Positions 4,696-53,193 of a DNA stretch of 64,000 nucleotides are shown here, in pieces (position 1 is the first letter of the stretch; each line of letters starts with the position of its first letter). The stretch lies in the sequence record PZ452608.1; one strand, 5' to 3'. The DNA comes from a phage. The notes beneath the pieces are model-generated. The model did no database searches. It worked only from the letters and a program-made list of their open reading frames with translations, and had not been told where the DNA came from. The position numbers and the translations under genes were made by a program.

Positions 4696-5796
4696 TTACT
4701 CATAATCCCTAATAACGAGACCAACAGGGAACTGTAAAGACCCCTTACGAGTCATCTTCTGGAACTGAACCGTTAAAGGTTTCCCGATAAACTCATCAGG
4801 ATGCTCAGCAAGGTACTGTTTCTTCTCATGAGTAGTCTTCCATGAGACATCTACAAAGACGTTAGGAAGAGTCTCTACAACGAACTTACCATGACCACGT
4901 TTATCAGTCTTTACACCAGTCACTTTAAACTCTTCAGTGTGCATCTTCTTGTGCTTAATCAAGAAGTATGAACGGTGACAACACTCATAGAAGGAGTCTT
5001 CAGAGATTGAACGGTACATTGCACCTTCAAACTTAACTTCAACCCACTTATCATGAGCTTCATCAAATTCTTCCCAAGAGTTTACACGACGAGACTTAAC
5101 AGGGACAACTTTACAGCCATCTCTCAAGTCATTCAATGGTGAAGTCTCAATAATATCCCTACGTTCAGGCCACGTCTTAGTGCTATCACAGATGTCATAC
5201 CAGTAAAACTTAAGAAGATGTCTGTCTGGGTTGTCTTCATTTTTAATCATGGAGACAATATCTTCTAAGTCCCACCCATGAGCATAAACCTCCCCGTCAA
5301 ACTCATCAACGTCTGCATGGAGTCTTAACATAGTCATAATGTCAGGTGTTAGCTCAGTAGGTATTTTATAAACAGTATTCTCACGAGAATAAGCCGTGAA
5401 ACTAACTGAATCATCACCTCTTGAAATTCTACAACGGACACCATCAAGTTTTGGTTGAGCATCAGCAGGGAACTTCAGATACTTTGCATGGCTAACCTTT
5501 GCAGCATCATGAGCAAGCTGTACACCTACCTTCTCAGTATTCTGTGCAGACTCTTTTGTGTAAGCGTAACCTTTACGGTCTACTTGTTTCTTATACTTAG
5601 CAGAAACTTCAAAGAGAGCTTGCTGTTCAGCGTTACGCTCATTCTTTTTACCGATGTTTTTAGGTTCTGCTGTATACTCTTCAAACATCATCTTGCCATT
5701 TTCTTTACCGTAGGTTGTAATAACTTTGTCACCTACAGCAACACATGACCAGATGTTAAAAGAGCCATCTTTATTTTGTTTGTACAGTATTGTCAT
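4696..5796 (-). CDS. ATP-dependent DNA ligase
   Basis: Adenylation motif KLDGVRC (KxDGxR), FDGEV, EGAMYR and LIKHKK motifs; start placed at ATG preceded by GAGGAATAAA. Confidence 0.65.
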   Translation of the reverse strand: MTILYKQNKDGSFNIWSCVAVGDKVITTYGKENGKMMFEEYTAEPKNIGKKNERNAEQQALFEVSAKYKKQVDRKGYAYTKESAQNTEKVGVQLAHDAAKVSHAKYLKFPADAQPKLDGVRCRISRGDDSVSFTAYSRENTVYKIPTELTPDIMTMLRLHADVDEFDGEVYAHGWDLEDIVSMIKNEDNPDRHLLKFYWYDICDSTKTWPERRDIIETSPLNDLRDGCKVVPVKSRRVNSWEEFDEAHDKWVEVKFEGAMYRSISEDSFYECCHRSYFLIKHKKMHTEEFKVTGVKTDKRGHGKFVVETLPNVFVDVSWKTTHEKKQYLAEHPDEFIGKPLTVQFQKMTRKGSLQFPVGLVIRDYE

Positions 5797-5797
5797 T

Positions 5798-5989
5798 TTA
5801 TTCCTCTGAGTGATACCAAGTATTGCAAGCATTACATGCGTAAAGCTCTAAGTCGTTTTTATCTGGTTTATGAAAACAGTTCGCTCCGCAGTGGCAACGA
5901 AACGGCTTTCCACCAACTGTCAGGATGAAGGATTGAACCTTTCCATCAGGAGTTCGTACAGCATTTTTATGCTTATCTTCTTTGTTCAT
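5798..5989 (-). CDS. small zinc-ribbon protein
   Basis: 63 aa with CHCGANC and CNACN cysteine clusters. Confidence 0.35.
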   Translation of the reverse strand: MNKEDKHKNAVRTPDGKVQSFILTVGGKPFRCHCGANCFHKPDKNDLELYACNACNTWYHSEE

Positions 5990-6361: not shown

Positions 6362-6598
6362 TCACTCAATAACCGTAGTGTGTGATTGACCATTTTTTCC
6401 ATAACTATAAGATGTTGTCGTTTGAGAGTTTGGACATCTGACAACAACAATGTCTCTACTTATGGCATCACCATGCAACTTATAGACTTTGCAATCTTGC
6501 ATCTCTGGTGGGAGGCTATAAGAAGCATTTTTATCTTCATAAGAAGGGTTGCAGCCAGCTAGAAAAATAACACCAAGCACAATTACTGATTTCCACAT
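6362..6598 (-). CDS. putative lipoprotein
   Basis: Signal peptide with lipobox MWKSVIVLGVIFLAGC. Confidence 0.45.
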   Translation of the reverse strand: MWKSVIVLGVIFLAGCNPSYEDKNASYSLPPEMQDCKVYKLHGDAISRDIVVVRCPNSQTTTSYSYGKNGQSHTTVIE

Positions 6599-7035: not shown

Positions 7036-9735
7036 TTAGTGTACTTCAAGCCAGCTTTTACCAACCTTACCAGTACCTGTTACAAGTGTTTCTTTCTTAA
7101 GACCTAAGTTCTTAGAAGCTTGTCCATAATACCAGTCAGTAACTGCTTTCACTTCTGCCGTCATACTTTCTGGACATTCCCAGCTTGTTTCATCGTGATA
7201 TGCGCAGAGTAAACGAGCACCAATAGCTGGTTGACGACCATTTAACTTCATCAAACCTTCGTCAATCATACGACGACAAGCAAGGTTAATTGCCTCATTT
7301 TGAATCTGAGCCTCTGAACCCATCAAAAGGTAGTTCAACAGTTTGTGTGGAGATTTACACCACAACCAAGCTCCAGCAACCTTTACAAAACCCCCTTTAG
7401 AGATTGCAGCAGTCTTACCAAACACCTCTTCAAGTGCCTTTTTAGTCGCTTTGTAGTCAGCTTCCAAGTCATCTAGCAGCTTCTTAATTTTAGGCAAACG
7501 GATAAAGTAAGTCTGTTTAGTCAGTGCACCTTCCTGAGTAGTTGCAGCTTTAATTGTCTTAGCAAACTTCTCATCACCTGCACCGAACAGCAGTGCATAG
7601 ATACCATTCTTAGCTTTCTTACGACCCTTGCTAATCTCATGAAGAAGATTCTCATCCTGAGTAGCTCGACAAGTCAAGATATCCTGCTCATCATTCAAGC
7701 TAAAGTAAATACTGTTCAGTGTGTGTGCATCAGTCCCTGAATAGACAACGTAAAGGTCATTCTCAGAGTCATAGCGAAGGTACTTATCAATCTCTGGGTT
7801 GAGGTACTCATCAAAATGTTTGCAGTAATAGCGTCCATCTTCTTGACGAATAAACTCAATCTCTTCTTTACCTTGCGTTACCGCTTTGGTGAAGTCTTTG
7901 TCACCCATAAAGTTACAAAGGAGAACTAGCTGGGCTGAGTTCATGTCTACAGAGACAACATTAGTACCTTCTTCACAAATCCACACTGCCCTCATTGGCT
8001 CCCCATAGACAGCAGCACCAGACGGTACGTTTACAATACCATATTGTGTCATACGTCCAGTTGAAGTACCAAATACCATTGCACCAGCACTAAGGCGACC
8101 ATCTGGACGAATCTGGTTCAGCCAACCTTTCTCGTCATCCTTTGAGTTCTCAATAGTTCTGCGTCGGTGCATCAAAGTATAGTACTTCGCAATCTTCTGT
8201 CCAAGCTCACCTTCAATCGTATCATAAGATGATTCAGTAAGTTTTGGTGAAGTACGGATTAAGCAAGGCTCAAGCAAATCTGTGTATTTCTTCACAGACC
8301 AGTTATGCTCGATGTACTGTACACCTTCATGTTCAACATAACTCAAACCACACCGCTCAACCATTTCCTGCCACTTAGGATGCTTTGTAATCATCTTTTT
8401 ATTGTCTTTGAAACGACAAACTTTGACAGGGCGACCATCTGAGTCTTTCTTGTAATTCCAGTCATCTGGAATCCAACCAACTGATTTCAAGTAGTCTTTA
8501 ACAACTGCTACCTGAGTCATACGAGAAACTTCAAACTCAATTGGTGTATATGGTGCATCAATCAAACCTGTGTAGCGACTTGACTCAAGTTCAAAGTGGT
8601 TAACAACATGACTGTTATAGTACTTCACAGTTTTGACTGTCTTTACTGGCTTCCAGTCTTTGCATTTCTTACCAATCTTTGCGTTCAACTCATTGCAAAT
8701 TGCACGAGCATCCTTCATTGCTACAAAGCCTTCCTTGTACTCTTCACCAGTTACAGAGTTGGTTGGTGTATAGCAATTTCTCTTTTCAATGTTAAAAATC
8801 TTTGTAGTTGGCTTACCAAATGGCTTGATTTCGTATGTCTGCATCTCACCGTTACGTACCTGCTGACGGTACTTTGTCTTAGGGTACTTGGTAATCCTCT
8901 TCAGACCATCTGCATGACCGAATGTTTCAACATATTCATTCCAAGCTTTTGCAAACTCTTCTCCAGTAACTTTACCTTTGGTCTTAATAGTTGGAGGTAG
9001 ATGCGGTTCAACCTCTGAAGCAAGCTCATTAGTCAACTTGTCAAGCTCCTTTACATGAAACTCCATAAGCTCTTTATCAGCTTTCCAACCATTGATAGCC
9101 TGTTGACTCATCCAGAAAGATGTCTCTTTAGCTCGCATGTAAGTTTCATAAGTGTCTATACCACACTTCTTAAGCTTGAGATATTCATTATCCAGTGCAC
9201 GTTTAGTTTTGGCGTTAATACGGATATCTTCTACAACACGAGTGAAGATTTCTGCATTCCAAACACCCCAATGCTCAATCTCTGGCTTACGAACACCAAC
9301 ACGAGCACCCCATGCAGCCAAGCCATGAGCACCTTTATAACCCTTTGGAGTTGGTCTATCCATCCACTGAACACGAGACTGGATAAGAGAATCCTGAAAG
9401 AAATTACTCCACGGCTTACACTTTGGATTATCAAAGTTCCATAAATCAGGGGCAATGTGATTGAAAACCCACCAGTCATAACCGAGACCATTATGGATGC
9501 AAAGACGTTTTGCCTTTAACGCAAACTCAATACCTTCACGTAAGCCACCCTTAATGTACTTGGTATACTTGTGACCGAGGATAGGCTCGTCTGTAAAGAC
9601 CCATACAGGCGGCTCTTCATCGTCAGATTTATAGTCTGCGAAAGCCATTACGTGAACTTTAGTGAACTCAAGGAGTAAACCATCAGTTTCTGTATCACCA
9701 ACTAAATGTAAGTTTTTAAAATCTACGTTTTCCAT
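7036..9735 (-). CDS. DNA polymerase, family A, with 3'-5' exonuclease domain
   Basis: About 900 aa; Exo I motif DTETDGL, motif-B-like KKAKNGIYALLFGAG, motif-C-like YHDE; start set at ATG (MENVDF) preceded by GAGGGAG. Confidence 0.8.
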   Translation of the reverse strand: MENVDFKNLHLVGDTETDGLLLEFTKVHVMAFADYKSDDEEPPVWVFTDEPILGHKYTKYIKGGLREGIEFALKAKRLCIHNGLGYDWWVFNHIAPDLWNFDNPKCKPWSNFFQDSLIQSRVQWMDRPTPKGYKGAHGLAAWGARVGVRKPEIEHWGVWNAEIFTRVVEDIRINAKTKRALDNEYLKLKKCGIDTYETYMRAKETSFWMSQQAINGWKADKELMEFHVKELDKLTNELASEVEPHLPPTIKTKGKVTGEEFAKAWNEYVETFGHADGLKRITKYPKTKYRQQVRNGEMQTYEIKPFGKPTTKIFNIEKRNCYTPTNSVTGEEYKEGFVAMKDARAICNELNAKIGKKCKDWKPVKTVKTVKYYNSHVVNHFELESSRYTGLIDAPYTPIEFEVSRMTQVAVVKDYLKSVGWIPDDWNYKKDSDGRPVKVCRFKDNKKMITKHPKWQEMVERCGLSYVEHEGVQYIEHNWSVKKYTDLLEPCLIRTSPKLTESSYDTIEGELGQKIAKYYTLMHRRRTIENSKDDEKGWLNQIRPDGRLSAGAMVFGTSTGRMTQYGIVNVPSGAAVYGEPMRAVWICEEGTNVVSVDMNSAQLVLLCNFMGDKDFTKAVTQGKEEIEFIRQEDGRYYCKHFDEYLNPEIDKYLRYDSENDLYVVYSGTDAHTLNSIYFSLNDEQDILTCRATQDENLLHEISKGRKKAKNGIYALLFGAGDEKFAKTIKAATTQEGALTKQTYFIRLPKIKKLLDDLEADYKATKKALEEVFGKTAAISKGGFVKVAGAWLWCKSPHKLLNYLLMGSEAQIQNEAINLACRRMIDEGLMKLNGRQPAIGARLLCAYHDETSWECPESMTAEVKAVTDWYYGQASKNLGLKKETLVTGTGKVGKSWLEVH

Positions 9736-9795
9736 TTTTACTCCCTCTAAAATCATTAACCTCATACATTACTGCAAAAAATTATAAAAAGCAAG

Positions 9796-22916: not shown

Positions 22917-23158
22917 TGACTTATGTGATTTACTCCAAAACTGGATGCCCTCAGTGTGAGACTGCAAAGAATTTTGCAAAAACTCGTGGTATTGACCATG
23001 TTGTGAGAATGTTAGGGCAGGATTATGAACTGTCAGACCTGATGGATATTGCACAGATGCCAGTTCGTCAGATGCCATTCATCATGAAAACTGATGGACA
23101 AAACCTAAAGCCTGTTGGGACGCTACAGAATTTTATGGCAGAGGTGAATAATGCTTAA
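22916..23158 (+). CDS. glutaredoxin-like protein (NrdH-type)
   Basis: 80 aa with CPQC redox motif, directly after nrdB. Confidence 0.6.
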   Translation: MTYVIYSKTGCPQCETAKNFAKTRGIDHVVRMLGQDYELSDLMDIAQMPVRQMPFIMKTDGQNLKPVGTLQNFMAEVNNA

Positions 23159-23357
23159 ACGCATTTGGGAAGGTTTGGTTGTTGATGCACCAGCTATTGT
23201 GATTGGTATGCTGATTGTTAACCTATTTACTGATTTTGAACAAGGTTCATTGTTTGGGGCCATGTTACTATGGGTTATCTTTGAAATATTAGAGATACAG
23301 TTAGGCATCACTGAAAAACTTAGAAAACTCGTTTCTAAGTTTTCTAAAAAGATTTAA
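23151..23357 (+). CDS. small hydrophobic protein
   Basis: 68-aa hydrophobic ORF. Confidence 0.25.
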   Translation: MLKRIWEGLVVDAPAIVIGMLIVNLFTDFEQGSLFGAMLLWVIFEILEIQLGITEKLRKLVSKFSKKI

Positions 23358-35582: not shown

Positions 35583-36131
35583 ATGAAGAAATTGATTCTA
35601 GGTTTGTGCTTAATGTTTACAGCACACTTATCTTATGCAGTTGACTGCCCAGAACTATCAATTAGCCAAAAAGTGAACATGTTAAAAGCTTACCAGTATG
35701 GTGAGAATAACATGGGTAAAGGTTGGGGTATCACTCTAGCAGCTATAGCCTTACAAGAGTCAGAGTTAGGTCTGAAGGTAGAAAATAAAAAGACCCATGA
35801 CTATGGTATCTTCCAGAATCACTTGAAGACTGTTGTAAAGCGTAACAAAATTAGTCCTAATGTTGCTAAAAAGAAACTCTTAAAAGATTTTGACTATGCC
35901 GCAAAAGAAACACATAAAGAGCTTGAGTTTTGGACGAAGGTGCATGGTCACCCAAAGTCAAAGAAGACTTTACAAAAAGTTTTAGCATCATATAATGCTG
36001 GGTATTCGTACAGAATCCCTAAAGCTAAGAAATATTCTCAAGATGTCTATAACAACATGAAAGTTATTGCTCAATGTGAATTTGCAACAAACATTTCTAA
36101 GGTAAACCATGAAAAAATTAAAAAAGTCTGA
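35583..36131 (+). CDS. secreted lytic transglycosylase-like protein
   Basis: Signal peptide MKKLILGLCLMFTAHLSYA; ALQESELG...YGIFQ resembles SLT-domain catalytic region. Confidence 0.4.
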   Translation: MKKLILGLCLMFTAHLSYAVDCPELSISQKVNMLKAYQYGENNMGKGWGITLAAIALQESELGLKVENKKTHDYGIFQNHLKTVVKRNKISPNVAKKKLLKDFDYAAKETHKELEFWTKVHGHPKSKKTLQKVLASYNAGYSYRIPKAKKYSQDVYNNMKVIAQCEFATNISKVNHEKIKKV

Positions 36132-36804
36132 TGAAGTCCTGTGCCACGCTTATGACTTACATCCTCATGAGTTAGGTCTTGATTCCTGTGTATGGACTCC
36201 AGAACAGTGTAGGGATTTTGAAGACACTGCAAGAGAAGTTGTATGTTCACTGGAAGAGTTCCACACATCAGAACCAATTGTGAACGTTGTGGACAAAGAG
36301 ACTGGACAAACTATAGGTGTAAGGCGCGATAGTTTAGTCATAGTCAATAAAGACCTTGTAGAAAAAGGTAACCTCATCTTAGCAGATATTGATGGTGTTC
36401 TTACAAATTTTAATCACGAAGATTGCTCAACGGAATTGACTGATGGGTCATTCTCACAGTACACTAATCTTCTTGATTCTGTAAGAGCAAAGCCAACATA
36501 TGTTTTCAACATTATTGATGCAATTGCAAATCATGCAGCAGTTGGACTCTTGACAGCAAGAGGTGAATCTCAGAGAATACCTACTGAGATGTTTTTAAGG
36601 CACAATATAGAGCATGATTACTTGCTTTTTATGCGTGGTTTTGGAACTAACTCTATAAGTGCAGAAAGTTTGAAAGTGAGGATGATTCAGTCTTGCATTC
36701 TTCCTTACTTTAATATAGTATGCTTTATAGAAGATACAGAGAATAATGTTCAGAAGGTAAACAGAATCCTTCCACACATTAAAACTATGTTAGTTAAACA
36801 TTGA
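36109..36804 (+). CDS. HAD-family phosphatase-like protein (possible 5'-nucleotidase)
   Basis: HAD motif I ADIDGVLT. Confidence 0.4.
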   Translation: MKKLKKSDEVLCHAYDLHPHELGLDSCVWTPEQCRDFEDTAREVVCSLEEFHTSEPIVNVVDKETGQTIGVRRDSLVIVNKDLVEKGNLILADIDGVLTNFNHEDCSTELTDGSFSQYTNLLDSVRAKPTYVFNIIDAIANHAAVGLLTARGESQRIPTEMFLRHNIEHDYLLFMRGFGTNSISAESLKVRMIQSCILPYFNIVCFIEDTENNVQKVNRILPHIKTMLVKH

Positions 36805-37280: not shown

Positions 37281-37292
37281 GGTTAAGATACA

Positions 37293-37313
37293 GGCTCCTT
37301 CGGGAGCCTTTTT
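37293..37313 (+). terminator. intrinsic terminator (UUCG tetraloop)
   Basis: GGCTCC-TTCG-GGAGCC then TTTTT. Confidence 0.55.
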
Positions 37314-37332
37314 CATTTCAGGAGATTGTTAA

Positions 37333-37680
37333 ATGACATTTAAAGAGTTCTGTCAAGCTACTTTCATAGTTGTTTTCTTAGTTGGGGCAGGTGTCTGGGG
37401 AGGATACTCTTACAGAGACTACCAAGTTGCTGAAACTGAGCTAAACAATGAGAAGCTGATAAGTGTTGCTAAAGATGCTTATCAGGAAGGATTAGCTACA
37501 CTGAGCACCAATTACAAAAATGATTTGAAAGATGTGCTTGCTAAGAATAAGCACACAAAAGAGGTACTAACGTATGAAAAAACTAAGCCAGAGTTTTATA
37601 ATGTTTGTGTTACTGATAATTATGTCAGGGTGTTCAACGAACAAAGTGAACAGTACATTCAAAAACTCCCAAGTAAGTGA
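37333..37680 (+). CDS. membrane-anchored protein, candidate i-spanin
   Basis: N-terminal TM (FIVVFLVGAGVWGG) plus helical periplasmic-type region; overlapped out of frame by a lipoprotein gene. Confidence 0.35.
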   Translation: MTFKEFCQATFIVVFLVGAGVWGGYSYRDYQVAETELNNEKLISVAKDAYQEGLATLSTNYKNDLKDVLAKNKHTKEVLTYEKTKPEFYNVCVTDNYVRVFNEQSEQYIQKLPSK

Positions 37681-37843
37681 GGGTGACAAGTACACTCAAG
37701 AAGAATCACGGTATATCATCAAAGGTAACACAGGCAGTGATGTAGCAGCAGCACTTGAGTTCTACCGTGACGGCTTTTACCAGTGTACAATTAAAGCTAA
37801 TAACCTTATTGACATGATTTTATTAGGGAATAAGCAGCAATGA
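37574..37843 (+). CDS. lipoprotein, candidate o-spanin
   Basis: Signal peptide with lipobox LLIIMSGC; starts inside the 3' end of 37333-37680 in another frame. Confidence 0.35.
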   Translation: MKKLSQSFIMFVLLIIMSGCSTNKVNSTFKNSQVSEGDKYTQEESRYIIKGNTGSDVAAALEFYRDGFYQCTIKANNLIDMILLGNKQQ

Positions 37844-38853: not shown

Positions 38854-39639
38854 ATGGGTATTGTAAAAATAATCAATGGTGATATCTTTGCCGCATTTGA
38901 TAAAGGTAAGTTTGACATCATCGGTCACGGTTGCAACTGTATGAATTTAATGGGTGCAGGTATCGCTGACAAGATTTCTAAACTTTACCCAAAAGCATAT
39001 GAGACCGATACAGAAGTTTATCTATATGCAGGTGGTATAGGACACAAACCCTGTGAAAATTTACTGGGTAATTTCTCTGTAGCACGTTTAAAACAAGGTC
39101 GTATAGCTAACCTTTACACTCAGCTTAAGACTGGTAAAGATGCCCGATACAGTGCTTTAGAGTCATCTTTGAAACAGCTTAACAGATACTGTGAAGTTAA
39201 TCAGTTGAGGAAAGTTGGTTTACCTATGATTGGTGCAGGTATCGGTGGGTTGGACCCTCAAGCCGTCACAGTTATCATCAATCAGGTGATGAAGAGTGTA
39301 GATGTTTATCTATATGTCTATGAAGGAGAGATGTACCACAAGTTACGCTCAGGTTGGAATAACTACTGTGAACCAGAATACTTTGCAGGTGTAGTAACGT
39401 TCAAAGATGATACAGTTACCCTCTTCAGACGAAGAAAAGGTAAGATACATCAAAGTAACCCTCCGGTTGAGAAGATGTCTCTAAGTAACGCTCTAGTTAC
39501 CCACCTGTCGAAGAGCAATCACAGGATAGCCGTAACATTTGGCAGTGATGCAGATACATATATTTATGCAAGAACTGATGAGGATATCGAGACGGTCTTC
39601 TCTTCACCGGAAGTTACCTTCTTAGACGCAAAGAACTAA
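38854..39639 (+). CDS. macro-domain protein (ADP-ribose binding/processing) with C-terminal extension
   Basis: IINGDIFAAFDKGKFDIIGHGCNCMNLMGAGIA and VGLPMIGAGIGGLDP resemble macro-domain motifs. Confidence 0.5.
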   Translation: MGIVKIINGDIFAAFDKGKFDIIGHGCNCMNLMGAGIADKISKLYPKAYETDTEVYLYAGGIGHKPCENLLGNFSVARLKQGRIANLYTQLKTGKDARYSALESSLKQLNRYCEVNQLRKVGLPMIGAGIGGLDPQAVTVIINQVMKSVDVYLYVYEGEMYHKLRSGWNNYCEPEYFAGVVTFKDDTVTLFRRRKGKIHQSNPPVEKMSLSNALVTHLSKSNHRIAVTFGSDADTYIYARTDEDIETVFSSPEVTFLDAKN

Positions 39640-39670
39640 GAAACTCTGTATAATATTCACAATAGACTAA

Positions 39671-39715
39671 GCCTTCCTTATCTGGTAAATTTTTCAGGTA
39701 AGGAGGGCTTTTTCA
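39671..39715 (+). terminator. intrinsic terminator (long imperfect stem)
   Basis: GCCTTCCTTA...TAAGGAGGGC then TTTTT. Confidence 0.4.
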
Positions 39716-39900
39716 TTTCAGGATTGTGCAGGTAGAGTTCTGTAGAGAAATCTGTAGAGAGAATTTTGAACTCCAAAGAGAAAATTCATTTTCAAACTGT
39801 GCAGGTAATCTCCAAAGAGCTTTTTCATTTTCAAAAAGTGCACCCCGCTCAGGTCGGGCAAGAAAAATCATTTTAGAATTGTGCAGGTAGGTTTTTATGG
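39716..39900. repeat. repeat-rich non-coding region
   Basis: TGTGCAGGTA x3 at about 80-bp spacing, TCTGTAGAGA x2, CTCCAAAGAG x2, CCCTCTCCCC x2. Confidence 0.5.
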
Positions 39901-52728: not shown

Positions 52729-53193
52729 TTACTTTGGGTATACACTGTCAAGATAAATGTCAGCTTCCATTCTACGTCTGTTTTTCAGTCCGTTTGAAGT
52801 GACCTTCTTACCTTTGACTGTAACCTTGTTCCACCACTGCATAGCTTCTGCACAACCCACCTTATTACCAGCATTGTGGCGCTTGATAAATGTGGAATCC
52901 TGCATAGCTGTGATACCAATGTTGTATGTTTCACTTACAAGTGCGTCAAACTCATTCTGAGAAGTTGGAACATTGACGGCTTTGTTCACTGCTGCAACAA
53001 ACTTTTCAACATCTGCGAGAAGATACTGTTCAGCTTGTTCAGCGGTAATCTTCATACCCATCTTAACAGGTTTTCCGTCAATACGGATTGTCCCATACCC
53101 GATTGTTGGGATTCCGGCAGAATCTTCGTAAGCCTCTAACTCCAGACCTTCGAAGAACTTAATAGCATCTAAACCTTTTCTTGAGAGTTGCAT
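52729..53193 (-). CDS. endolysin, phage lysozyme (GH24-like)
   Basis: FEGLELEAYEDSAGIPTIGYGT catalytic-region pattern of T4/lambda-type lysozymes. Confidence 0.75.
   Translation of the reverse strand: MQLSRKGLDAIKFFEGLELEAYEDSAGIPTIGYGTIRIDGKPVKMGMKITAEQAEQYLLADVEKFVAAVNKAVNVPTSQNEFDALVSETYNIGITAMQDSTFIKRHNAGNKVGCAEAMQWWNKVTVKGKKVTSNGLKNRRRMEADIYLDSVYPK

What the first reader, a model, noticed from the sequence alone, without database searches (positions are those of the whole stretch)
37333..37843. Overlapping membrane protein and lipoprotein pair resembling a two-component spanin, far from the endolysin
Seen in sequence: a 115-aa protein with an N-terminal TM and helical remainder is overlapped in another frame by an 89-aa lipoprotein with lipobox LIIMSGC, the classic Rz/Rz1-type overlapped arrangement. 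It is about 15 kb from the GH24 endolysin (52729-53193, opposite strand), and the lipoprotein is not Pro-rich, so it could instead be a superinfection-exclusion or receptor-masking lipoprotein.
Basis: partly seen in the sequence, partly recalled or inferred. Interest (0 to 1): 0.45.

Follow-up and report, generated by a model that had tools for sequence, protein, structure and literature searches.

The report
Felix O1-type overlapped spanin gene pair
These two overlapping genes are the already-catalogued inner-membrane and outer-membrane "spanin" pair that Felix O1-like phages are predicted to use to break the host outer membrane at the end of lysis, so the finding is real but ordinary.

Summary
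Window 37333-37680 (+) encodes a 115-aa protein with one N-terminal membrane helix. Window 37574-37843 (+) encodes an 89-aa lipoprotein (lipobox IMSG|C20, Ser at +2) in the +1 frame, with a 107-nt overlap.

The window is a Felixounavirus, 100% identical over 3.7 kb to phage wV8 and O157 typing phages. The pair is wV8 gp6/gp7. The published spanin census (Kongari 2018) lists it at these coordinates as an overlapped two-component spanin, and many GenBank records annotate it as i-/o-spanin.

- Both frames are intact in 29 of 29 distinct relatives, and each shows purifying selection.
- Both proteins have homologues in the same overlapped layout in Erwinia/Yersinia myophages, 9NA/Sasha siphophages, a Proteus siphophage and phiEco32-like podophages.
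- In Sasha and the Proteus phage the pair ends a holin-endolysin cassette.

Lysis genes are scattered in Felix O1-like phages and in T4. The T4 o-spanin family has no Pro-rich region, and relatives of this lipoprotein carry 3-4 prolines.

No link to exclusion or defence proteins was found. Function is inferred; I found no experimental test of this family. Novelty: already known. Interest: low.

The parts
37292..37309 (+). Intrinsic terminator-like hairpin (AGGCTCC-TTCG-GGAGCCT followed by a T-run) ending the upstream PNK/gp5 unit. Only 23 nt separate it from the i-spanin start.
   Evidence: Annotated as a Rho-independent terminator in the wV8 record.
37320..37324 (+). Shine-Dalgarno AGGAG, 8 nt upstream of the i-spanin ATG.
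   Evidence: Sequence. The same motif is listed for Felix O1 in the Kongari supplement.
37333..37680 (+). i-spanin gene (wV8 gp6 equivalent), 115 aa. It has a 5-residue N-tail, a membrane helix at about residues 6-24 and an 88-aa mostly helical periplasmic domain.
   Evidence: phrog_1152 'Rz-like spanin', E 1.7e-41. AF2 model is helical but low confidence. Listed in the spanin census.
37348..37404 (+). Codons for the predicted N-terminal transmembrane helix of the i-spanin (residues 6-24).
   Evidence: Kyte-Doolittle 19-mer maximum of 1.73. Depositors of the homologous Sasha gp55 note 'TMD N in, C out'.
37564..37674 (+). Conserved C-terminal domain of the i-spanin (residues 78-114, motif EK-x3-F-x-N-x-C-x4-Y-x4-N-E, invariant Cys92). 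Inferred to be the o-spanin-binding end.
   Evidence: Alignment A5. hhalign of periplasmic domains only gives 97.7% probability, E 1.3e-12.
37561..37564 (+). Shine-Dalgarno GAGG, 9 nt upstream of the o-spanin ATG, inside the i-spanin gene.
   Evidence: Sequence.
37574..37843 (+). o-spanin gene (wV8 gp7 equivalent), 89-aa prolipoprotein in the +1 frame relative to the i-spanin.
   Evidence: phrog_4180 E 1.4e-50 and phrog_456 'Rz-like spanin' E 1.5e-3. Annotated o-spanin in Moogle, VSe11, allfine and others. Listed in the spanin census.
37574..37680 (+). 107-nt dual-coding overlap. It encodes the i-spanin C-terminal residues 81-115 together with the o-spanin signal peptide and the first part of its linker (residues 1-36).
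   Evidence: Flat, low diversity at all three codon positions, 0.045-0.064.
37574..37633 (+). Lipoprotein signal peptide (residues 1-19) and the lipid-modified Cys20 codon (37631-37633). The lipobox is I-M-S-G|C with Ser at +2.
   Evidence: Pattern match. Cys20 is kept in 29 of 29 relatives. Weak NCBIfam lipoprotein-family hits are confined to residues 1 to about 61.
37718..37825 (+). Conserved C-terminal domain of the o-spanin (about residues 49-84; invariant G54, C71, N76, L78). Predicted helix-turn-helix.
   Evidence: Alignments A4 and A6. hhalign without signal peptides gives 95.7-97.5% probability. AF2 helices at 54-75 and 78-87.
52729..53193 (-). Soluble T4-lysozyme-type endolysin, the upstream step of the same lysis pathway. 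It is unlinked to the spanin genes.
   Evidence: PF00959 E 9e-41. phrog_7 endolysin E 2.4e-57.

Best explanation

Shown directly:
- Two overlapping, independently translated genes, each under purifying selection.
- One encodes a protein with a single N-terminal membrane helix.
- The other encodes a prolipoprotein with a lipobox and Ser at +2.
- Each has a conserved C-terminal domain with one invariant cysteine.
- Both proteins are homologous to pairs that end holin-endolysin cassettes in unrelated phages.

Inferred from established spanin biology (lambda Rz/Rz1, T4 PseT.3/PseT.2):
- gp6 inserts N-in/C-out in the inner membrane.
- gp7 is lipidated at Cys20, cleaved by signal peptidase II and sorted by Lol to the inner leaflet of the outer membrane, because +2 is not Asp.
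- A roughly 33-residue flexible linker lets the C-terminal helical hairpin of gp7 bind the conserved C-terminal helices of gp6.
- The complexes span the periplasm, threaded through the peptidoglycan mesh, and are probably stabilised by Dsb-dependent disulfides through Cys92 and/or Cys71.
- They stay inert until the unlinked GH24 endolysin (52729-53193) destroys the wall after holin triggering. They can then cluster and change shape, fusing the inner and outer membranes and releasing progeny.

Because peptidoglycan restrains spanins, their genes need not be linked to or co-timed with the endolysin gene.
For: - Anatomy.
- Purifying selection on both frames, with 29 of 29 relatives intact.
- Family hits: phrog_1152 'Rz-like spanin' at E 1.7e-41 for the membrane protein, and a weak phrog_456 'Rz-like spanin' hit for the lipoprotein.
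- Prior listing: the published census gives wV8 5332-5680 / 5573-5843 and Felix01 as overlapped i-/o-spanins. GenBank records annotate i-/o-spanin.
- Wider family: both proteins recur in the same overlapped layout in Kolesnikvirus, Sashavirus/9NA, Gorganvirus and Kuravirus.
- The homology survives removal of the signal peptide and membrane helix. For the o-spanin, hhalign gives 95.7% (E 1e-8) and 97.5% (E 5e-12). For the i-spanin it gives 97.7% (E 1.3e-12).
- Cassette context: in Sasha the pair follows a small membrane protein, an M15 peptidase endolysin and a 2-TMD protein. In Proteus phage 2207-N35 it follows Phage_holin_8 and a CHAP endolysin.
- Cysteines: there is one invariant periplasmic Cys in each partner. 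This fits the census finding that 507 of 528 two-component spanins have a periplasmic Cys.
- Structure: the AF2 secondary structure is compatible, with a helical i-spanin ectodomain and an o-spanin of disordered linker plus helical hairpin.
- Gene position: scattered lysis genes are described for Felix O1-like phages and for T4.
Against: - I found no experimental test of this spanin family. Three literature searches found only annotation-level mentions.
- There is no detectable sequence similarity to any experimentally characterised spanin beyond the membrane helix or lipobox. This covers lambda Rz/Rz1, T7 18.5/18.7, P2 LysB/LysC and T4 PseT.3/PseT.2. Pfam returned no significant hit; all matches were far below gathering scores.
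- The census predicted no coiled coil for the Felix01/wV8 i-spanin (file 4).
- The mature o-spanin has no proline.
- Both AF2 models are low confidence (pLDDT 58-61).
- The genes sit in an rII / PNK / macro-domain neighbourhood rather than with lysis genes, directly after a terminator and with no recognisable promoter. Timing of expression is therefore unknown.
- Membrane orientation of gp6 is not fixed by charge bias.
Confidence: 0.86

Rival explanations
1. The lipoprotein is a superinfection-exclusion or receptor-masking outer-membrane lipoprotein of the T5 Llp or phi80/N15 Cor type. Its overlap with the membrane-protein gene is only a compact gene arrangement.
For: The gene lies among early-type small genes near rIIA/rIIB rather than with the endolysin. 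The mature protein lacks the Pro-rich region of Rz1. There is no experimental proof of a lysis role.
Against: No PHROG exclusion family or PADLOC family was hit. The lipoprotein always co-occurs with a homologous membrane partner in the same overlapped layout in five phage genera with different receptors and morphotypes. In Sasha and Proteus phage 2207-N35 the pair is the last element of a holin-endolysin cassette. The conserved part is a roughly 35-residue helical hairpin behind a disordered linker, not a globular receptor-plugging domain. From general knowledge rather than a test here, Felix O1-type phages adsorb to LPS core, which a periplasm-facing lipoprotein cannot mask.
Confidence: 0.04
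2. The pair forms an envelope-spanning complex with a role other than, or in addition to, outer-membrane disruption. Examples are blocking secondary DNA injection or modulating lysis timing together with rIIA/rIIB during early infection.
For: The pair is close to rIIA/rIIB, a PNK-like gene and a macro-domain gene, and the spanin-macro linkage recurs in Kolesnikvirus and Kuravirus. Expression timing is unknown.
Against: The same protein pair sits in classical late lysis cassettes in other phages. T4 keeps its proven spanins next to its PNK gene, away from its holin and endolysin genes, so the position says little about function. No feature points to another activity.
Confidence: 0.06
3. The pair is a decaying or dispensable spanin remnant, and the phage breaches the outer membrane by another route.
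For: The proteins are short, with an 88-aa ectodomain and a 70-aa mature lipoprotein. The census predicted no coiled coil.
Against: Both frames show strong purifying selection and are intact in 29 of 29 relatives down to 78% nucleotide identity, with lipobox and cysteines invariant. No other spanin candidate is present in the window.
Confidence: 0.03

Closest known systems
Felix O1 / wV8 / FO1a overlapped two-component spanin, as listed in Kongari et al. 2018 (PMC6139136) and annotated in Moogle, Mushroom, VSe11 and others
   Same: It is the same gene pair. The wV8 entry has the same coordinates relative to the genome, the same 107-nt overlap and the same 348-nt i-spanin gene. The window is 100% identical over 3.7 kb to wV8 and O157 typing phages 8, 11 and 12.
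   Different: Nothing material. RefSeq wV8 still labels gp7 'hypothetical protein' and only gp6 'Rz-like spanin'.
Spanin pairs of 9NA/Sasha (Sashavirus), Proteus phage 2207-N35 (Gorganvirus), phiEco32/NJ01/SGF2 (Kuravirus) and phiEa21-4/Harbringer (Kolesnikvirus)
   Same: Both proteins are homologous, at 95.7-98.7% hhalign probability on mature or periplasmic parts. The layout is the same overlapped one. The i-spanin motif EK..F.N.C....Y....NE and the o-spanin motif G..........Y...Y..C....NGL are shared, with one conserved Cys in each C-terminal domain.
   Different: Those o-spanins have 3-4 prolines and usually extra cysteines in the linker; the Felix O1 group has none. In Sasha and the Proteus phage the pair sits inside a lysis cassette, whereas here and in Kuravirus it is unlinked to the endolysin.
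Lambda Rz/Rz1 (prototype, embedded architecture)
   Same: It has the same functional anatomy: a type II inner-membrane protein with a helical ectodomain, plus a small outer-membrane lipoprotein encoded in the +1 frame. Both have periplasmic cysteines. The genes share DNA.
   Different: There is no detectable homology. hhalign gives 0.5% and 9%, limited to the lipobox, and Pfam Rz families are not hit. The architecture is overlapped rather than embedded. There is no penta-proline stretch and no predicted coiled coils. The ectodomain is shorter. The pair is not in a lysis cassette.
T4 PseT.3/PseT.2 (separated architecture)
   Same: The spanin genes are unlinked to the holin and endolysin genes and lie next to a polynucleotide-kinase gene, one gene away in both phages. 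The o-spanin has no Pro-rich region and some predicted secondary structure.
   Different: There is no sequence similarity beyond the membrane helix or lipobox. T4 genes are separated, not overlapped. The T4 i-spanin has no periplasmic Cys and its o-spanin has two. The gene order relative to PNK is reversed.

Membership tests
Two-component spanin (functional class; Summer 2007, Kongari 2018) | i-spanin: a small protein with a single N-terminal transmembrane helix and a predominantly alpha-helical C-terminal ectodomain | tested here: met
   The Kyte-Doolittle maximum is 1.73 at residues 6-24 and there is no other hydrophobic segment. The AF2 model has helices at 39-55, 65-78, 85-92 and 95-111, at low confidence. 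The census Jpred figure is 66% helix.
Two-component spanin (functional class; Summer 2007, Kongari 2018) | N-in/C-out (type II) topology of the i-spanin | not testable with these tools
   Charge bias around the helix is weak. Orientation is inferred from the conserved Cys in the C-terminal domain and from depositor TMHMM notes for the Sasha homologue.
Two-component spanin (functional class; Summer 2007, Kongari 2018) | o-spanin: signal peptidase II signal with lipobox Cys, and a +2 residue compatible with outer-membrane sorting (not Asp) | tested here: met
   MKK + hydrophobic core + IMSG|C20-S21 matches the lipobox pattern. Cys20 is invariant in 29 of 29 relatives and across the wider family. 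Actual lipidation is not testable here.
Two-component spanin (functional class; Summer 2007, Kongari 2018) | Adjacent genes in embedded, overlapped or separated architecture, with the o-spanin having its own start and RBS | tested here: met
   107-nt overlap, +1 frame, GAGG 9 nt upstream of the o-spanin ATG. The dual-coding diversity signature supports it.
Two-component spanin (functional class; Summer 2007, Kongari 2018) | At least one periplasmic cysteine available for intermolecular disulfides (507 of 528 systems) | tested here: met
   i-spanin Cys92 and o-spanin Cys71 are invariant. Disulfide formation itself was not tested.
Two-component spanin (functional class; Summer 2007, Kongari 2018) | Genetic linkage to holin and endolysin genes (typical, not obligatory) | tested here: not met
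   The endolysin is 14.9 kb away on the other strand, and no holin family was recognised in the window. Homologous pairs do sit in lysis cassettes in Sasha and Proteus phage 2207-N35. T4 and Felix O1-like phages are accepted exceptions.
Two-component spanin (functional class; Summer 2007, Kongari 2018) | Physical complex between the C-terminal ends of the two proteins | not testable with these tools
   Only monomer prediction was available. The C-terminal domains of both are the conserved parts, which is compatible but indirect.
Two-component spanin (functional class; Summer 2007, Kongari 2018) | Required for outer-membrane disruption (spherical-cell arrest in mutants; complements lambda RzRz1 defects) | not testable with these tools
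   This needs an experiment. No published test for this family was found.
Lambda Rz / Rz1 sequence families | Detectable sequence homology to Rz and Rz1, including the Rz1 proline-rich region | tested here: not met
   No Rz-family Pfam hit at E<=1. hhalign gives 0.5% (Rz) and 9% (Rz1, lipobox only). The mature lipoprotein has no Pro.
T4 PseT.3 / PseT.2 spanin families | Detectable sequence homology to PseT.3 (i) and PseT.2 (o) | tested here: not met
   hhalign gives 0.9% and 10-12%, restricted to the membrane helix or lipobox. Searches paired the wrong partners and are superseded.
PHROG 1152 (i-spanin) / PHROG 4180 (lipoprotein partner) | Full-length profile match | tested here: met
   E 1.7e-41 over residues 1-115 and E 1.4e-50 over residues 1-88.
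Superinfection-exclusion / receptor-blocking lipoproteins (Llp, Cor type) and anti-phage defence proteins | Sequence similarity to a known exclusion or defence family, and occurrence as a stand-alone lipoprotein gene | tested here: not met
   No such PHROG family at E<=0.1 and no PADLOC hit at E<=1. The gene is never stand-alone and is always overlapped with the membrane partner. Llp and Cor sequences were not compared directly.

The most novel reading that the evidence does not exclude
The Felix O1 / 9NA / phiEco32 / phiEa21-4 spanin family may work differently from the lambda and T4 paradigms. The i-spanin has no predicted coiled coil. In the Felix O1 branch the o-spanin has no proline and ends in a helical hairpin. 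Each partner has exactly one invariant periplasmic cysteine, placed in the conserved C-terminal domain that presumably forms the interface. That arrangement would allow a heterotypic Cys92-Cys71 disulfide that covalently ties the inner-membrane protein to the outer-membrane protein. Lambda and T4 use only homotypic links. My evidence neither supports nor excludes this over homotypic dimers.
Probability: 0.2. Interest if true: 0.35.

Novelty: already known. Interest (0 to 1): 0.08.

Why it matters
It matters little beyond annotation. The result confirms that the pair is the phage's outer-membrane-disruption module. RefSeq wV8 and many relatives still label the lipoprotein gene 'hypothetical' or call it from an internal Met, which drops the lipobox. 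At least two genome papers report 'only one spanin found' for this reason.

Felix O1-like phages are used for Salmonella and E. coli biocontrol, so a complete lysis gene set is useful background. The family is widespread (myo-, sipho- and podophages) and, as far as I could find, has not been tested experimentally. It would be a reasonable third model beside lambda and T4 if someone wanted to test how general the coiled-coil and proline-rich fusion model is.

Tried and rejected
- Pfam on both proteins gave only sub-threshold noise. NCBIfam gave only weak N-terminal hits (residues 1 to about 61) to lipoprotein and other envelope-protein families for gp7, and a meaningless weak hit for gp6. PADLOC gave nothing.
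- An exhaustive HMMER search of 1.84 billion representatives with the mature o-spanin profile found only two convincing short relatives (P0039, and P0040 at E 1.8e-9) plus a frameshifted fragment (P0023). The remaining hits were long proteins matched through short repeated stretches and were ignored.
- PDB sequence searches with both family profiles gave nothing below E 0.19.
- A Foldseek search of the o-spanin model against PDB gave no match with E<=0.001. The model is low confidence, so this says nothing either way.
- The first T4 comparison paired the wrong partners, because PseT.2 is the lipoprotein and PseT.3 the membrane protein. It was redone correctly and was still negative.
- hhalign against lambda, T7 and P2 spanins gave at most 13% probability, so common ancestry cannot be claimed.
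- The search for related loci with the broad alignment failed because no conserved 7-10 column stretch exists. It was rerun with the single protein.
- Homologues that appeared to lack the signal peptide (68- and 73-aa calls starting MNKV or MSGC) are gene-caller artefacts. The upstream DNA encodes MRKLSQSFITFVLLILMSGC.
- A search for a holin among small membrane ORFs of the window found no PHROG holin family.
- No sigma-70-like promoter fits between the upstream terminator and the i-spanin start, so the transcription source is unresolved.

Full report
**What is there**

- ORF 37333-37680 encodes 115 aa. AGGAG lies 8 nt upstream. Its only strongly hydrophobic stretch is residues 6-24 (mean Kyte-Doolittle 1.73). 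That leaves a 5-residue N-tail and an 88-residue C-terminal domain.
- ORF 37574-37843 encodes 89 aa in the +1 frame, with GAGG 9 nt upstream.
- It starts with a typical lipoprotein signal: MKK, a hydrophobic core, then IMSG|C20 with Ser at +2.
- Its 70-residue mature part has no proline and one more cysteine, Cys71.
- The overlap is 107 nt.
- An intrinsic terminator-like hairpin (37292-37309) sits 23 nt before the first start codon. The next one follows the macro-domain gene at 39669-39710.

**Source and prior annotation**

The 3.7 kb around the pair is 100% identical to Escherichia phage wV8 and to O157 typing phages 8, 11 and 12. It is 92-99% identical to some 200 other Felixounavirus genomes. 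The two ORFs are wV8 gp6 and gp7.

- RefSeq calls gp6 'Rz-like spanin' and gp7 'hypothetical protein'.
- Many other records call them i-spanin and o-spanin.
- The published spanin census (Kongari et al. 2018, PMC6139136) lists 'wV8 ovl 5332-5680 / 5573-5843, overlap 107' in its supplementary tables. Felix01 and FO1a are listed in the same way. The main text groups Felix01, FO1a and UAB_phi87 among overlapped spanins.
- The Moogle genome announcement says Felix O1-like phages have an endolysin, both spanins and a putative holin scattered around the genome rather than in a cassette (PMC4319497).

The finding is therefore already in the literature as a bioinformatic assignment.

**Are both genes real?**

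I collected 33 copies, 29 of them distinct, from phage records, IMG/VR and metagenome contigs. They span 78-100% nucleotide identity.

- In all 29 distinct copies both ORFs are intact at identical coordinates.
- The lipobox Cys20, Cys71 of the lipoprotein and Cys92 of the membrane protein never change.

Nucleotide diversity by codon position:

| Region | Position 1 | Position 2 | Position 3 |
|---|---|---|---|
| i-spanin only | 0.082 | 0.057 | 0.224 |
| o-spanin only, own frame | 0.083 | 0.053 | 0.323 |
| Overlap | uniformly low, 0.045-0.064 at all three positions | | |

The first two rows show the third-position excess expected of coding sequence under purifying selection. The flat, low values in the overlap are the expected signature of two constrained frames. 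Some database homologues appear to start at MSGC or MNKV and so to lack a signal peptide. The upstream DNA still encodes the full signal and lipobox, so these are gene-caller choices.

**Wider family and genomic context**

- PHROG places gp6 in phrog_1152 'Rz-like spanin' (E 1.7e-41).
- PHROG places gp7 in phrog_4180, of unknown function (E 1.4e-50), with a weak hit to a spanin family.
- tblastn and a profile search found distant versions of the lipoprotein in Erwinia and Yersinia Ounavirinae, in Salmonella siphophages 9NA and Sasha, in Proteus siphophage 2207-N35, and in phiEco32-like podophages.
- In every case an ORF for a small N-terminally anchored membrane protein overlaps its 5' end, and that protein aligns with gp6.

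I removed signal peptides and membrane helices to stop them driving the scores. The homology holds:

| Comparison | hhalign probability | E-value |
|---|---|---|
| o-spanin, Felix group vs 9NA/Proteus/Kuravirus group | 95.7% | 1e-8 |
| o-spanin, Felix group vs Erwinia/Yersinia group | 97.5% | 5e-12 |
| i-spanin ectodomains | 97.7% | 1.3e-12 |

The conserved parts are the C-terminal roughly 35 residues of each protein.

- In the i-spanin the motif is EK-x3-F-x-N-x-C-x4-Y-x4-N-E.
- In the o-spanin it is a G...Y..Y..C....NGL motif.
- Each contains one invariant cysteine.

The context in two of these phages is informative:

- In Sasha the pair follows a small membrane protein, a Peptidase_M15_4 endolysin (E 8.9e-13) and a two-TMD protein.
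- In Proteus phage 2207-N35 it follows Phage_holin_8 (E 9.7e-14) and a CHAP-domain endolysin (E 1.2e-7).

So the same protein pair is the terminal element of classical lysis cassettes built around different endolysins.

*Distance from the endolysin.* The GH24 endolysin is indeed at 52729-53193 on the minus strand (PF00959, E 9e-41), 14.9 kb away. This is the described condition in Felix O1-like phages. T4's proven spanin genes are likewise unlinked to the holin gene t and the endolysin gene e. In the accepted model, intact peptidoglycan keeps spanin complexes inactive. On that model co-regulation with the endolysin is not required.

*Lack of prolines.* This is true for the Felix O1 and Moogle branch. 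Homologues in the same family have 3-4 prolines in the linker, and the T4 o-spanin family has no Pro-rich region. In the Felix branch, linker residues up to 36 are encoded by the same DNA as the most conserved part of the i-spanin. Their composition is therefore largely dictated by the other frame.

The census also records no Pepcoil coiled coil for this i-spanin. That places it among the more than 120 i-spanins with none.

**Structure**

- The AF2 model of the lipoprotein has mean pLDDT 61. It shows the signal helix, a disordered segment at about 19-53, and a helix-turn-helix at 54-75 and 78-87. This hairpin is its most confident part.
- The AF2 model of the membrane protein has mean pLDDT 58. 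It shows the membrane helix followed by four or five helices.
- Both models are low confidence. I use them only for secondary structure, which agrees with the census Jpred numbers.
- Foldseek against PDB gave nothing, which is uninformative for such a model.
- Sequence searches of PDB gave nothing.

**Relation to characterised spanins**

hhalign against lambda Rz/Rz1, T7 18.5/18.7, P2 LysB/LysC and T4 PseT.3/PseT.2 gave probabilities of 13% or less. The aligned stretches were either confined to the membrane helix or lipobox, or were short low-probability segments. My first T4 comparison, paired the wrong partners and is superseded.

The pair therefore belongs to the spanin class by anatomy and by context of its homologues. 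It does not belong by homology to a tested protein. I found no experimental paper on this family.

**Rivals**

- *Exclusion or receptor-masking lipoprotein.* This has no positive evidence. There are no PHROG exclusion or PADLOC hits. It is also contradicted by obligatory pairing with the membrane partner across phages with different hosts and tails, and by the lysis-cassette context of homologues.
- *A non-lysis envelope role.* The rII / PNK / macro-domain neighbourhood suggests this, but it cannot be excluded without expression data or mutants. T4 shows the same positional habit.
- *A decaying remnant.* The selection signature contradicts this.

**Verdict**

The case is already known as a catalogued but experimentally untested overlapped two-component spanin. 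Interest is low.

The one open and mildly interesting point concerns the disulfide arrangement. Each partner has a single invariant cysteine, so they could form homotypic dimers as in lambda and T4, or a heterotypic i-o link.

Noticed in passing
window 6362-6598 (-): This is a second lipoprotein-like ORF: 78 aa, MWKSVIVLGVIFLAG|CNPSYE..., three further Cys, phrog_902 of unknown function (E 5e-17). It sits among small minus-strand genes between a ligase-like gene (4696-5832) and the DNA polymerase (7036-9765). Neither neighbouring ORF has a membrane helix, so it is not a second spanin pair. It is a better candidate than gp7 for a stand-alone envelope or exclusion lipoprotein.
   Followed up: partly
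window 38854-39639 (+); L004 2761-3201; L006 2784-3551: A macro-domain gene (PF01661, E 1.7e-7; annotated 'phosphatase') lies 1 kb downstream of the spanin pair. In Erwinia phage Harbringer and in the podophage SGF2 (Kuravirus) the corresponding gene follows the o-spanin directly. The wV8-type and SGF2 macro proteins are homologous (25% identity, E 2e-8). A spanin-macro linkage is thus shared between myophages and podophages, for no obvious reason.
   Followed up: partly
window 36109-36804 (+) and L007 (T4 134002-135781): A polynucleotide-kinase-like gene (phrog_3970, E 2e-134) lies one gene upstream of the spanin pair. In T4 the spanins pseT.3 and pseT.2 lie one gene (pseT.1) from the PNK gene pseT. 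The spanins themselves show no sequence similarity, so this is a positional parallel only.
   Followed up: partly
window 35583-36131 (+): This 182-aa protein has an N-terminal signal-peptide-like segment (MKKLILGLCLMFTAHLSYA) and a sub-threshold SLT lytic-transglycosylase hit (19.2 bits against a cutoff of 21.3, E 9e-4). It is annotated 'putative lysin' in phage radambza. It sits between rIIB and the PNK-like gene, 1.2 kb upstream of the spanins. It may be an exported second muralytic enzyme. There was no PDB sequence hit.
   Followed up: partly
window 37310-37320 and 39711-39720 (+): Both intrinsic terminators flanking the gp6-gp12 unit are followed by the same TTTTCATTTCA tail. The first runs straight into the i-spanin RBS. 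No sigma-70-like promoter fits between the terminator and the gene, so how the unit is transcribed (read-through or a phage-specific promoter) is unresolved.
   Followed up: no
window 23151-23357 (+): This 68-aa ORF has two hydrophobic segments and a charged C-terminus (phrog_4532, unknown function), which is a class II holin-like shape. No PHROG holin family was hit by it or by five other small membrane ORFs, so the holin of this phage was not identified in the window.
   Followed up: partly
GenBank/metagenome homologues (P0009-P0022; PMC8300805; PMC9951933): Many gene calls for the o-spanin start at an internal Met (MSGC... or MNKV...) and lose the signal peptide. Two genome papers report finding only one of the two spanins in Felixounavirus isolates. 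This is an annotation artefact, since the lipobox is present upstream wherever I checked.
   Followed up: yes
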